Shown here one piece after another: positions 27,336 through 29,429 of a DNA stretch of 64,000 bases. The position numbers were made by a program, and so were the translations under genes. The stretch comes from an uncultured Clostridia bacterium. Its GTDB lineage: Bacteria > Bacillota > Clostridia > Christensenellales > UBA1242. The notes under the pieces were generated by a model. The model did not search any database. It was not told the DNA's origin and saw only the letters and a list, made by a program, of their open reading frames with translations. The stretch covers positions 23,050 through 87,049 of the forward strand of contig CAKVOD010000006.1 of assembly GCA_934778205.1 (NCBI GenBank), read 5' to 3'. The first letter of the stretch is position 1; the number at the start of each line of letters is the position of its first letter.

Positions 27336-29429
27336 TTATATATCATTATATGCATTTAGGGGGACTGTTGGACAAAGAGCATTATGAATTAACATCCCCC
27401 CTGCAAACAAATTATGATTGTTTTCAACCGAATAACTATACACTGTTATTCCTCTAGTTGTTGTCATAATGTCAATTGACTCAACTTCAACATATCCACT
27501 TAGCGTTTTTACCATATCCCCCACCGCAAGTGGATTATCTCTTAATACATCGGGTGACACATCATATAATGTGCTTGTTCCGCAAATTGCCCAACCTGTG
27601 CTTGTCAAAATCGGGTGGTCGGGTGTGAGATTCAAGACGCTACCGTCTTTTAATCTAACAGTCGCCAACGAATAACGTGTAACAACTACAACATTCGTTA
27701 TATTTTGCAAACTCAATTCACCTGTCGTAGTGTCCATAGTCAAAACTTTGTCTCCCACTTCAATTTCGTTTGCTAATTTTGTTTCTCCATTAAAGCCAAC
27801 TGAAACTGCCGTATCTTCAGTAATACAACAAACTTTGTAAGATAAACTATAAACGCAATTGATTGATTCATCAAATGAAGTAAAGTTCTTGTTATCATAT
27901 GAGTAATAAAGTTCGACCGCTTCAGTTATCGTGTCGGAGGTTTCCCTATAACCATCTCCGCTTATGCACTGAACAAGCAAACCAGATAAATCGACACTCG
28001 AAATTTTTGACGCTGATATGATTGTAAATTTGTATGTATATGACCCATTAGCAATTTTTTCGCAATTATATGAGTTTCCACCATATGTTACACTCTCAGT
28101 ACTTGAGGAAACTGAATTCAATGGAACATTAACAATCATTTTAAAATAAACATTTGGTGATAATTCGCTTATAGTCAATGAACTTGTTACTGAAATGCTT
28201 GGGTTAAATCCCCCACTGATTTCAATCTTCATTTCACCACTTGTTGTATAAGCTGGCTTTGTTCTATTTGTAATAGTTATATTAAGCGTTGCAGTAGCAG
28301 CAGCGCCAGTGCTCGCGTCAGTCATAAGTGCGTAATTGACGCCGTCCACAGATGACGATATGCTGAATGTGTATGTCGCATTTGTTTGCGTGGCGCTAAA
28401 TGTGCCGACGGGCGCGTTTTTTAATACTGACGTCACATCAATTGAAGAAAGTGTGCTTTCATTCGTAGCCCTCAAATTTGTTCCATTTGCGTCCGTTGTC
28501 AATACATACATCCAGCCATTCTTTGAGGATGAAACCATATTTTGACTATAGAGAGGCGCTGTTGATTGCATTGTAATTTTTGTGTACTTTGCAGGGTTTG
28601 TTACTGCCACATTCACTGAACCACTAACTGTAGTTGACTGATATGTTCCGTTTTGATACAAATTTTCAATCACGACATCGTTAAGCACACTCACGTCACT
28701 GACAGTCGAACCCGCAACAACATTAAAACCGATTTGCCCCTCTATCGTCGCTTGCGCACGTGAGTCGGACATATCCTTTTTTGTATCTGCTGAAACTACT
28801 ATGAAAATAGTTTGCGGAGTCGTTGCCGTTGTCAAGTTTTCCCCCGTATATGTAAAGTGTGAAAGAGGCTCAAACAAATTAAAGGTTGTGCCCGTTTTAA
28901 CTGCAGTGGTGGAGGTCAAACTAAATCTATTCTTTAGGACGCTATCGGCTGAAACTACGCCAAGCGAAGCTTCGCCAAATGTATATGTGGTGCTATCAAA
29001 TGAAATCAAATTCGTTGTGCTACTTAGGTCACTAAAAATGTATTCAACTTTGACAAAGTATTGCGACAGTTGATTTTGGTCGTCGATTGTCACATTGTAT
29101 TTACTGTCAGTAGTAAGACTAACGGCACTCGAACTACCATATGTTATACCACCATTATTTAGCGTTCCATCCGCCCCAACATTTGAGTAAAACATCTCAA
29201 TGCCGTTGTTAAAACGCAGTGCGGGACTGTCAAATGTGAACGCAATTGTTCCCGTCGCAGTCTTTGAATCTTTTAAAACACTATATGTTGTATACGCAAC
29301 AAAAGCAAGTCCCAAAAGTAAAATGACAAGGCTCAAAATTGTCATTTTGCGAAATTGGTTTGCGCGGGTTTGTTCCGTACAAATTGTTGAAATTCTTTGG
29401 TTATTATTTTTCATACTACTACCTTTCAT
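27336..29429 (-). CDS. variable membrane-anchored surface protein, family member 3, with C-terminal Hint domain (short form; internal ATGs at 29429 and 29414; long form to ATG 29676/29682 needs a 1-nt tract change)
   Basis: The ORF track gives 27336..29579. It shares the conserved ..YCQNLQDTCKN.. leader peptide with members 1 and 2. It has the TM segment MTILSLVILLLGLAFVAYTTY and a Thr/Ser-rich ectodomain. Confidence 0.75.
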   Translation of the reverse strand: MKGSSMKNNNQRISTICTEQTRANQFRKMTILSLVILLLGLAFVAYTTYSVLKDSKTATGTIAFTFDSPALRFNNGIEMFYSNVGADGTLNNGGITYGSSSAVSLTTDSKYNVTIDDQNQLSQYFVKVEYIFSDLSSTTNLISFDSTTYTFGEASLGVVSADSVLKNRFSLTSTTAVKTGTTFNLFEPLSHFTYTGENLTTATTPQTIFIVVSADTKKDMSDSRAQATIEGQIGFNVVAGSTVSDVSVLNDVVIENLYQNGTYQSTTVSGSVNVAVTNPAKYTKITMQSTAPLYSQNMVSSSKNGWMYVLTTDANGTNLRATNESTLSSIDVTSVLKNAPVGTFSATQTNATYTFSISSSVDGVNYALMTDASTGAAATATLNITITNRTKPAYTTSGEMKIEISGGFNPSISVTSSLTISELSPNVYFKMIVNVPLNSVSSSTESVTYGGNSYNCEKIANGSYTYKFTIISASKISSVDLSGLLVQCISGDGYRETSDTITEAVELYYSYDNKNFTSFDESINCVYSLSYKVCCITEDTAVSVGFNGETKLANEIEVGDKVLTMDTTTGELSLQNITNVVVVTRYSLATVRLKDGSVLNLTPDHPILTSTGWAICGTSTLYDVSPDVLRDNPLAVGDMVKTLSGYVEVESIDIMTTTRGITVYSYSVENNHNLFAGGMLIHNALCPTVPLNAYNDI
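27381..27827 (-). other. Hint (Hedgehog/intein) / bacterial intein-like autoprocessing domain
   Basis: CITEDTAVSV..IEVGDKVL (block A), LTPDHPILT (TxxH) and VYSYSVENNHNLFAGGMLIHN (terminal HN), followed by ALCPTVPLNAYNDI and the stop. Confidence 0.75.

What the first reader, a model, noticed from the sequence alone, without database searches (positions are those of the whole stretch)
27339..27827. Complete Hint / bacterial intein-like domain at the extreme C-terminus of a variable surface protein
Residues about 585-733 of the 27336..29579 ORF carry all Hint blocks. These are a Cys nucleophile in ..YKVC-CITEDTAVSV..GDKVL, TxxH in LTPDHPILT, and the terminal ..VYSYSVENNHNLFAGGMLIHN. Only 14 residues (ALCPTVPLNAYNDI) follow. 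The residue after His-Asn is Ala rather than Cys, Ser or Thr. This argues against protein splicing and for BIL-type or Hedgehog-type autocleavage. The ectodomain could be released, or transferred through a thioester to another nucleophile such as a wall component, a lipid or a host molecule. BIL domains are known from hypervariable surface proteins of other bacteria, and pre-toxin Hint domains normally precede a C-terminal toxin. Here there is no toxin, and the domain is coupled to a poly(G) switch.
Basis: partly seen in the sequence, partly recalled or inferred. Interest (0 to 1): 0.6.

Follow-up and report, generated by a model that had tools for sequence, protein, structure and literature searches.

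The report
Intein-like self-cleaving domain ending surface protein
A switchable surface-protein gene of an uncultured small-genome gut-type Firmicute ends in an intact intein-like (BIL-type Hint) self-cleaving domain followed by only 14 residues; it belongs to a widespread, unannotated group of such toxin-less end domains, so the domain probably processes or re-attaches the protein's own C-terminus and does not release a toxin.

Summary
Residues 585-733 of the 747-aa ORF (window 27381-27827, minus strand) are a complete Hint domain. TIGR01445 scores above its cut-off. A 71-sequence family profile hits solved BIL domains at E 5e-28 and 9e-22, ahead of true inteins. The AlphaFold model (pLDDT 89) superposes on C. 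thermocellum BIL (TM 0.89) and Tetrahymena BIL2 (TM 0.87).

Cys585 and His655 are the only invariant residues. The domain ends His-Asn733, residue +1 is Ala, and 14 residues follow, with no toxin. It is an A-type-like bacterial intein-like domain, not a splicing intein or a pre-toxin Hint.

- The genome has five such genes.
- Among the 155 closest relatives from 1.84 billion proteins, 94 also end 0-20 residues after the Hint.
- The short tails are about 5-fold enriched in Cys (here Cys at +3, followed by Pro), and this goes with a Cys at -1.
- The membrane anchor or signal is N-terminal, so cleavage frees the Hint, not the ectodomain.
- The poly(G) tract lies inside a conserved coding leader. 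G13 here is OFF; G12 in another assembly gives the 781-aa ON form.

Self-cleavage and any transfer chemistry remain untested.

The parts
29715..29743 (-). sigma-70-like promoter (TTGACT, 17-nt spacer, TATACT) upstream of the leader
   Evidence: Consensus scan, 10 of 12 matches. A similar GGTAtACTAa element precedes the other leader-poly(G) genes of the genome. Consensus match only.
29653..29682 (-). Conserved coding leader (MLMKNRTNVL) with GGAGAG ribosome-binding site just upstream
   Evidence: Read. The same leader type is found before about 15 other poly(G) tracts in the genome. The homologue P0007 begins MKNRTNVLGGGG.
29640..29652 (-). Poly(G) tract, 13 G, inside the coding leader. This length is out of frame (OFF).
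   Evidence: With G13 the leader frame stops at TGA 29632-29634. With G12 it reads through to a 781-aa protein. The same locus in metagenome assembly ERZ28614141 has G12 and encodes the 781-aa protein P0002.
27336..29579 (-). Main ORF as listed by the ORF finder (747 aa from an internal TTG; the true start is probably the leader ATG)
29283..29345 (-). Hydrophobic helix, residues 79-99 (signal anchor or signal peptide)
   Evidence: Translation. Conserved position in all homologues.
29250..29264 (-). Invariant KTATG motif (residues 106-110) just after the helix; possible SipW-type signal or processing motif
   Evidence: K, T, A, T, G are invariant in 18 sequences. Ten such proteins exist in the genome, including all 5 Hint bearers. 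A SipW-type peptidase is present in the genome. The link to SipW is a lead only.
27828..29249 (-). All-beta ectodomain (residues 111-584), a string of Ig-like sandwiches; its last ~130 residues are hypervariable
   Evidence: AF2 model pLDDT 80.3. Fold matches are only generic Ig-like, pilin, cadherin, integrin-leg and S-layer structures. Mean pairwise identity is 75% for residues 121-330 and 33% for residues 451-584.
27381..27827 (-). Hint / BIL-type autoprocessing domain, residues 585-733. Key codons: Cys585 at 27825-27827, block-B His655 at 27615-27617, terminal Asn733 at 27381-27383.
27339..27380 (-). 14-residue C-terminal micro-tail (ALCPTVPLNAYNDI): +1 Ala, +3 Cys, +4 Pro
   Evidence: The tail is disordered in the model. 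Cys-containing micro-tails recur in relatives.
27301..27329 (-). Terminator-like hairpin 7 nt after the stop codon
   Evidence: 11-bp stem followed by a T run. Consensus match only.

Best explanation
The last 163 residues are a catalytically intact bacterial intein-like (A-type-like BIL) Hint domain plus a 14-residue tail. They are fused to the C-terminus of a phase-variable, N-terminally anchored or secreted, Ig-like surface protein.

Proposed mechanism (inferred from the Hint family, not shown here):
1. After export, Cys585, assisted by the block-B Thr652/His655, performs an N-to-S acyl shift. This converts the Cys584-Cys585 peptide bond into a thioester.
2. The thioester is resolved by water, by a thiol, or by the amine of the tail. 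This detaches the 149-residue Hint from the ectodomain.
3. Asn733 can cyclise to cut off the tail.

Because +1 is Ala there is no canonical splicing. At most there is the A-type BIL route, in which the freed tail amine attacks the thioester. The selected activity is the N-terminal reaction, since across the family only Cys1 and the block-B His are invariant and the terminal Asn and the tail are dispensable. The net result is a mature ectodomain ending at Cys584. That end is either free or carries whatever resolved the thioester.
For: - Hint identity: TIGR01445 above cut-off and TIGR01443 at cut-off; Pfam Intein_splicing E 9e-8.
- Nearest solved relatives by profile: BIL2 (6TMM/6Y75) at 5e-28 and C. 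thermocellum BIL (2LWY) at 9e-22, ahead of every true intein, which score 3e-17 or weaker.
- The AF2 model has pLDDT 88.9. Foldseek gives BIL2 TM 0.87 and 2LWY TM 0.89 with rmsd 1.7.
- Catalytic residues: Cys585 and His655 are the only invariant columns in 71 sequences.
- In 129 complete domains of the nearest relatives, residue 1 is Cys in 128, the end is HN in 103, and +1 is Cys/Ser/Thr in only 11.
- Four close homologues end exactly at the last Hint residue (LLHS), so no C-flank is needed.
- 94 of the 155 nearest relatives end 0-20 residues after the Hint.
- The Hint is conserved (71% mean identity) next to a hypervariable segment (33%), which argues for purifying selection on the Hint.
- A Hint-less paralogue 3.8 kb from a Hint-bearing one (55% identical) stops within a few residues of the position of Cys1. 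The Hint is therefore a removable add-on.
- BIL domains lacking a +1 nucleophile are reported to give mainly N- and C-cleavage products (PMC7664689, PMC7765530).
Against: - No biochemical data exist for this protein or any close relative.
- Pfam's own Intein_splicing threshold is narrowly missed (32.5 against 35.8 bits).
- The gene is out of frame (G13) in this assembly.
- Nothing shows what resolves the thioester.
- The roles of the conserved Cys at -1 and Cys at +3 are not explained by simple hydrolysis.
- Homopolymer lengths in metagenome assemblies are error-prone.
Confidence: 0.7

Rival explanations
1. Conjugation instead of mere cleavage. The Cys585 thioester is resolved by a specific nucleophile, so the ectodomain's C-terminus becomes covalently attached to something. 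Candidates are a peptidoglycan amine, a lipid, a Lys of another subunit, or a host molecule. This is analogous to cholesterol transfer by Hedgehog and to Lys isopeptide formation by Tetrahymena BIL2.
For: - The best solved relative is BIL2, which is reported to transfer its N-flank onto Lys side chains (PMC8616854).
- The genome has penicillin-binding proteins. No sortase and no SLH domains were found, at 99.4% completeness.
- If the SipW-type peptidase removes the N-terminal helix, another means of retention would be needed.
- +1 Lys is the commonest flank in the wider family, 49 of 125 domains.
- The conserved N-terminal segment with an invariant Lys is unstructured in the monomer model.
Against: - All of this is circumstantial.
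- No acceptor or adaptor region (such as Hedgehog's sterol-recognition region) follows the Hint.
- Five of the ten KTATG proteins lack a Hint, so the Hint is not needed for retention of the family.
- The N-terminal helix may simply remain as an anchor.
Confidence: 0.17
2. Redox- or thiol-gated variant. Cys584 (-1) and Cys736 (+3) form a flank-to-flank disulfide, or a relay. This holds the two junctions together and either gates the reaction or lets the tail Cys take the acyl group in place of a +1 nucleophile. The outcome would be ectodomain joined to tail, a splicing-like product.
For: - The tails of terminal Hints have 7.3% Cys against a 1.4% background.
- 20 of 23 proteins with a tail Cys also have Cys at -1, against 21 of 48 without a tail Cys.
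- The recurrent form is HN, then 1-5 residues, then Cys, often followed by Pro.
- Disulfide 'redox traps' at intein junctions are known; for example the PDB title of 3NZM appears among the fold hits.
Against: - The counts are not phylogenetically independent.
- The tail is disordered in the model.
- Close homologues keep the Cys-Cys pair but have no tail at all, and three paralogues have neither Cys.
- A gut anaerobe's surroundings are reducing.
Confidence: 0.08
3. It is something other than an active BIL. It could be a decayed, catalytically dead Hint kept as a structural end-domain, a true intein, or the remnant of a polymorphic toxin that lost its toxin.
For: - Weak Pfam PT-HINT and Intein_splicing hits.
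- The gene is frame-shifted in this assembly.
Against: - All catalytic positions are intact and the domain is more conserved than its neighbouring segment.
- There is no conserved host protein, no C-extein and no +1 nucleophile, so it is not an intein.
- The toxin-less end is the majority architecture of the closest relatives, 94 of 155.
- The next gene is addB, not an immunity gene.
- The frameshift sits in a poly(G) tract that is in frame in another assembly.
Confidence: 0.05

Closest known systems
A-type bacterial intein-like (BIL) domains, e.g. Clostridium thermocellum BIL (PDB 2LWY; Amitai 2003 and Dassa 2004, as cited in PMC7664689 and PMC7765530)
   Same: - Cys1, block-B TxxH and a terminal His-Asn.
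- A non-nucleophilic +1 residue (Ala).
- Located in a hypervariable part of a non-conserved secreted protein of a Clostridia-type organism.
- Profile E 9e-22 and TM 0.89.
   Different: - Here the domain is the end of the protein, with a 14-aa tail and none in some homologues, so there is nothing substantial to ligate.
- There is a conserved Cys at -1 and a Cys-Pro in the micro-tail.
- Sequence identity to 2LWY is only about 21%.
BIL2 of the Tetrahymena thermophila BUBL1 locus (PDB 6TMM, 6Y75)
   Same: - It is the best profile hit (E 5e-28) and the best fold hit (TM 0.87).
- It is a BIL that uses its thioester to pass the N-flank to an amine (PMC8616854).
   Different: - It is eukaryotic and cytosolic, flanked by ubiquitin-like domains on both sides, and Zn-regulated.
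- In the window's protein there is no ubiquitin-like cargo and no C-flank domain.
Hedgehog C-terminal autoprocessing domain (Hog; PDB 1AT0)
   Same: - The architecture is secreted cargo followed by a C-terminal Hint.
- Only the N-terminal acyl shift is needed.
- Fold match TM 0.76.
   Different: - No sterol-recognition region follows the Hint.
- Pfam Hint (PF01079) scores 22 bits, below its cut-off of 29.7.
- -1 is Cys, not Gly.
- The terminal His-Asn is retained.
Pre-toxin HINT (PF07591) of polymorphic toxins (PMC3482391)
   Same: It is a Hint autopeptidase near the C-terminus of secreted, variable bacterial proteins.
   Different: - No toxin domain follows and there is no immunity gene.
- PF07591 scores 20 bits, below its cut-off of 27.7.
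Bacterial proteins with a C-terminal Hint-like domain noted by Burglin 2008 (PMC2362128; Myxococcus, Photorhabdus, Serratia)
   Same: They are secreted bacterial proteins that end in a Hint-like domain.
   Different: That group is described as retaining only motifs A and B and as distinct from BILs. The present domain has all blocks, including the terminal His-Asn, and lies closest to BILs.

Membership tests
Hint (Hedgehog/intein) superfamily | Significant profile match to Hint or intein splicing-region models | tested here: met
   - TIGR01445: 27.5 bits against a cut-off of 24.5.
- TIGR01443: 15.6 bits, equal to its cut-off.
- PF14890: E 9e-8, but 32.5 bits is below its gathering score of 35.8.
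- Family profile against PDB: E 5e-28.
Hint (Hedgehog/intein) superfamily | Horseshoe-like all-beta Hint fold | tested here: met
   AF2 model pLDDT 88.9. The top 40 or more Foldseek hits are all BIL, intein or Hedgehog structures, with TM up to 0.89.
Hint (Hedgehog/intein) superfamily | N-terminal nucleophile (Cys/Ser) and block-B Thr-x-x-His | tested here: met
   Cys585 and T652-P-D-H655. Cys1 and this His are the only invariant columns of 71 sequences.
A-type bacterial intein-like (BIL) domain | C-terminal His-Asn with a non-nucleophilic +1 residue | tested here: met
   His732-Asn733 followed by Ala734. In relatives the end is HN in 103 of 129 domains, and +1 is C/S/T in only 11 of 125.
A-type bacterial intein-like (BIL) domain | Sits in a hypervariable region of a non-conserved (secreted) bacterial protein, not in a conserved enzyme | tested here: met
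   The adjacent 134 residues have 33% mean identity, against 71-75% for the Hint and the N-domain. The ectodomain has no Pfam or NCBIfam family. Only 7 homologues were found in 5.8 billion proteins.
A-type bacterial intein-like (BIL) domain | Closer to BILs than to inteins in sequence | tested here: met
   The profile ranks BIL2 (5e-28) and C. thermocellum BIL (9e-22) above the best intein (3e-17). No dedicated A-type BIL profile was available, so subtype assignment rests on this ranking and on the motifs.
A-type bacterial intein-like (BIL) domain | Autocleavage at the N- and/or C-junction | not testable with these tools
   Needs protein expression and mass spectrometry.
Class 1 intein | +1 Cys/Ser/Thr and a C-extein that completes a conserved host protein | tested here: not met
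   +1 is Ala. Only 14 residues follow, and none in four homologues.
Pre-toxin HINT (PF07591) / polymorphic toxin | C-terminal toxin domain after the Hint, with an immunity gene downstream; PF07591 above threshold | tested here: not met
   The tail is 14 aa with no domain. The downstream gene is addB. PF07591 scores 20.0 bits against a cut-off of 27.7.
Hedgehog-type Hog domain | Sterol-recognition or adaptor region after the Hint; PF01079 above threshold | tested here: not met
   No region follows the Hint. PF01079 scores 22.2 bits against a cut-off of 29.7.
SipW-dependent (TasA/camelysin-type) signal peptide protein | Match to the SipW-type signal model, or similarity to TasA-like proteins | tested here: inconclusive
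   - No NCBIfam or Pfam hit for residues 70-330, even at E 10.
- BLASTP to the ORF next to sipW is not significant.
- The only support is a motif resemblance (SD-S-K-T-A-T-G-T, recalled from memory) and the presence of a SipW-type peptidase, TIGR02228 at 92.6 bits.

The most novel reading that the evidence does not exclude
The terminal Hint is a sortase-independent covalent attachment device. After export, its thioester hands the ectodomain's C-terminus (Cys584) to an amine. The amine could be on the cell wall or on the conserved N-terminal KTATG segment of another subunit. Either way, phase-variable surface proteins would be fixed or polymerised in a bacterium in which neither sortase nor SLH anchors were found. 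This would be a bacterial counterpart of Hedgehog cholesterol transfer and of BUBL isopeptide transfer.
Probability: 0.12. Interest if true: 0.85.

Novelty: new variant of a known kind. Interest (0 to 1): 0.5.

Why it matters
BIL domains have been known for about twenty years, yet their role in living cells is still unsettled. The best-studied bacterial Hints outside inteins are toxin-releasing modules.

This locus shows a large, unannotated group of BIL-type Hints that have no C-flank to release or ligate. They end 0-20 residues after the domain, on cargoes that include Ig-like surface proteins, pilin-like proteins, collagen-like proteins and LRR proteins. For these, the only possible substrate is the cargo's own C-terminus.

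That makes the old question of what the BIL thioester is for directly testable on a small recombinant fragment. It also raises the possibility of Hedgehog-like C-terminal modification or attachment in bacteria.

The coupling to a very large poly(G) phase-variation repertoire in a 1.3-Mb genome is of separate interest for how small-genome gut bacteria vary their surface.

Tried and rejected
- The SipW/TasA link was not confirmed. There was no NCBIfam or Pfam hit for the N-domain at E 10, and BLASTP to the ORF beside sipW was not significant.
- The ectodomain fold searches (PDB Foldseek, ESM Atlas) gave only generic multi-Ig-like matches with TM below 0.4, so no specific adhesin or TasA assignment is possible.
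- A second word-indexed homologue search restricted to residues 95-330 returned the same 7 proteins.
- The genome-contig scan found one relative, in an 'uncultured Clostridia bacterium' MAG, so the organism could not be named further.
- Cluster look-ups returned no annotation from any source.
- True intein, pre-toxin Hint and Hog readings were considered and rejected on defining features (see Membership tests).
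Full report
**1. What is there**

The minus-strand ORF 27336..29579 gives 747 residues. Window 27381-27827 translates to a 149-residue block that starts CITEDT and ends MLIHN. It is preceded by YKVC and followed by 14 residues (ALCPTVPLNAYNDI) and a stop.

Profile evidence:
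- On the last 188 residues, TIGR01445 (intein N-terminal splicing region) scores 27.5 bits against a cut-off of 24.5.
- TIGR01443 (C-terminal region) scores 15.6 bits, equal to its cut-off.
- Pfam Intein_splicing reaches E 9e-8 but stays just under its gathering score (32.5 against 35.8 bits).
- Hint, Vint, PT-HINT and Hint_2 are weak and all below threshold.
- Single-sequence phmmer against PDB finds RecA mini-inteins at E about 2e-5.

**2. Which kind of Hint**

I searched the Hint region against 1.84 billion representative proteins. This gave 2206 hits at E<=1e-3 and 165 at E<=1e-10. I aligned 71 complete domains. Only two columns are invariant, Cys585 and His655. These are the two residues needed for the N-to-S acyl shift.

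A profile of this alignment ranks solved structures as follows:
- BIL2 of the Tetrahymena BUBL1 locus: 5e-28.
- The Clostridium thermocellum bacterial intein-like domain 2LWY: 9e-22.
- 8W20: 6e-19.
- True inteins: 3e-17 and weaker.
- Hedgehog: about 1e-6.

The AlphaFold2 model (pLDDT 88.9, pTM 0.85; the tail is disordered) superposes on BIL2 (TM 0.87) and on 2LWY (TM 0.89, rmsd 1.7 A).

In 129 complete domains of the nearest 155 proteins:
- Residue 1 is Cys in 128.
- The end is His-Asn in 103.
- Residue +1 is Lys (49), Ala (17) or Arg (10).
- Residue +1 is Cys, Ser or Thr in only 11.

This is the signature described for A-type BIL domains: a conserved C-terminal His-Asn, no +1 nucleophile, and a location in hypervariable regions of non-conserved bacterial proteins (PMC7765530, PMC7664689).

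**3. The architecture is the rule, not an accident**

The genome (1.34 Mb, 17 contigs, 99.4% complete) has five Hint-bearing genes, all with the Hint at the very end:

| Contig | N-junction | End and tail |
|---|---|---|
| C6 (this gene) | C\|CITEDT | HN\|ALCPT..., 14 aa |
| C1 | C\|CITGDT | HN\|VPCPTKPVV |
| C3 | A\|CVVGDT | HN\|WIS |
| C7 | S\|CVTADT | HN\|GKSPI |
| C8 | A\|CITGDT | HN\|KISTT |

Four homologues from other assemblies end exactly at the last Hint residue (LLHS), with no tail and no Asn.

Of the 155 nearest relatives, 94 end 0-20 residues after the Hint. Many end in a single Lys after the His-Asn, and many have tails of 3-16 residues. Cargoes are diverse:
- KTATG-type Ig-like proteins.
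- Proteins with type IV pilin-like N-termini.
- Collagen-like repeats.
- BspA-type LRR.
- Flg_new repeats.

None of the looked-up clusters carries an annotation. A toxin remnant is therefore unlikely. In this window the downstream gene is addB.

**4.

(a) The micro-tails are rich in Cys: 7.3% against 1.4% in the same proteins. The typical form is HN, then 1-5 residues, then Cys, often followed by Pro. Here Cys is at +3 and Pro at +4. Of 23 proteins with a tail Cys, 20 also have Cys at -1, against 21 of 48 without one. These counts are not phylogenetically independent. They suggest an interplay of the two flanks, such as a disulfide or a relay, but this is inference.

(b) The Hint (71% mean pairwise identity) is far better conserved than the 134 residues before it (33%).

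(c) A Hint-less paralogue on contig C7, 55% identical over 455 residues, stops within a few residues of where Cys1 sits in its Hint-bearing neighbour. Five of the ten KTATG proteins in the genome lack a Hint. The Hint is a modular add-on, and its removal would give a product like the Hint-less paralogues.

**5. The rest of the protein and its topology**

After a low-complexity N-region comes one hydrophobic helix (residues 79-99) and an invariant KTATG motif. An all-beta ectodomain follows. It is modelled at pLDDT 80 as a string of Ig-like sandwiches, with only generic structural neighbours. The first ~60 residues after the helix are highly conserved yet unstructured in the monomer model.

The anchor or signal is N-terminal. 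Cleavage at Cys585 therefore frees the Hint, not the ectodomain.

A SipW-type signal peptidase is encoded elsewhere in the genome (TIGR02228, 92.6 bits). The motif after the helix resembles SipW-dependent signals as I recall them. However, no profile or BLAST result confirms this.

The genome has penicillin-binding proteins. No sortase or SLH domain was found.

**6. The switch**

The 13 G at 29640-29652 lie inside a coding leader, read as (ML)MKNRTNVL followed by the G run, with a GGAGAG ribosome-binding site and a TTGACT/TATACT promoter-like site upstream.
- With G13 the leader frame stops after 16 codons.
- With G12 it runs on into the 781-residue protein.
- The syntenic locus in assembly ERZ28614141 has G12 and encodes that 781-aa protein, which is 100% identical over the shared part.

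Genome-wide there are 48 G/C runs of 11 or more. About 38 lie 6-14 codons after a start codon, in three conserved leader types, and precede ORFs of roughly 100-1200 codons. Only 8 are in frame in this assembly. Homopolymer lengths in metagenome assemblies are uncertain, so the ON/OFF calls are provisional.

**7. Mechanism**

*Shown:* an intact BIL-type Hint with all catalytic positions, at the protein's end, under purifying selection.

*Inferred from the family:*
1. An acyl shift at Cys585 gives a Cys584 thioester.
2. Resolution of the thioester detaches the Hint.
3. Asn733 cyclisation can remove the tail.
4. Canonical splicing is excluded.

*Open:* what resolves the thioester. The candidates and my odds are:
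- Plain hydrolysis or tail aminolysis (most likely).
- Transfer to another nucleophile, as in Hedgehog or BIL2 (about 0.17).
- A Cys(-1)/Cys(+3)-gated variant (about 0.08).

A dead domain, a true intein or a toxin remnant is unlikely (about 0.05).

**8. Novelty**

BIL domains on variable secreted proteins, including in Clostridia, are known. C-terminal Hint-like domains in some secreted proteobacterial proteins were noted in 2008 (PMC2362128). What I could not find described in the searched literature:
- That toxin-less, flank-less terminal BILs are the majority architecture of a large clade.
- Their Cys-containing micro-tails.
- Their pairing with KTATG-type surface proteins and poly(G) leaders.

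My searches and counts here were made independently of it. I rate this as a new variant of a known kind, of moderate interest.

Noticed in passing
window 5423-5435, 8114-8126, 29640-29652, 51002-51015 (all minus strand); genome-wide in G000: The 1.34-Mb genome has 48 G/C homopolymers of 11 or more bases, against one A/T run of 12 or more. About 38 of them sit 6-14 codons after a start codon in three conserved leader types: M-K/I-N/F-R-T-K-V/L-L; M-I-K-N/H/Y-L-T-K; and M-N/K-N-R-T-N-A-P-R. They precede ORFs of roughly 100-1200 codons. Only 8 are in frame in the assembly. Several contigs end in such tracts. This is a very large translational phase-variation repertoire for so small a genome.
   Followed up: partly
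G000 C3:85846-86322 (locus L021 1249-2022, minus) and the adjacent ORF L021 176-808 (minus): A SipW-type (archaeal/ER-type) signal peptidase I (TIGR02228, 92.6 bits) lies next to a 210-aa ORF. After its helix, the signal region of that ORF (SGKAQVQGTITVGE) loosely resembles the KTATG motif. This may be a TasA/SipW-like export pair. BLASTP similarity to the KTATG N-domain is not significant.
   Followed up: partly
alignment A1 (P0001, P0005, P0006): Homologue P0005 is 96% identical to the window protein over residues 95-330. Its distal ectodomain and Hint then follow the P0006 type, ending LLHS. This is a mosaic that suggests recombination between alleles or cassettes at the hypervariable segment.
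   Followed up: no
proteins P0009, P0011, P0041: Some relatives carry 4-7 tandem Hint domains in one protein, and some end in Pro-rich or collagen-like sequence. The purpose of such Hint arrays is unexplained.
   Followed up: no
window 16744-19806 (-), 43263-46316 (-), 14522-16642 (-): There are two ORFs of about 1020 aa with no Pfam family, and a 706-aa ORF with a weak Listeria-Bacteroides repeat (Flg_new) hit. These are probably further surface proteins of this organism.
   Followed up: no
window 20841-27213 (-): An addA/addB helicase-nuclease pair lies directly downstream of the Hint gene (UvrD-helicase plus PDDEXK_1; ADDB_N plus PDDEXK_1), with an extra small PD-(D/E)XK ORF at 20092-20832. 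This is ordinary housekeeping context, not a toxin/immunity context.
   Followed up: partly
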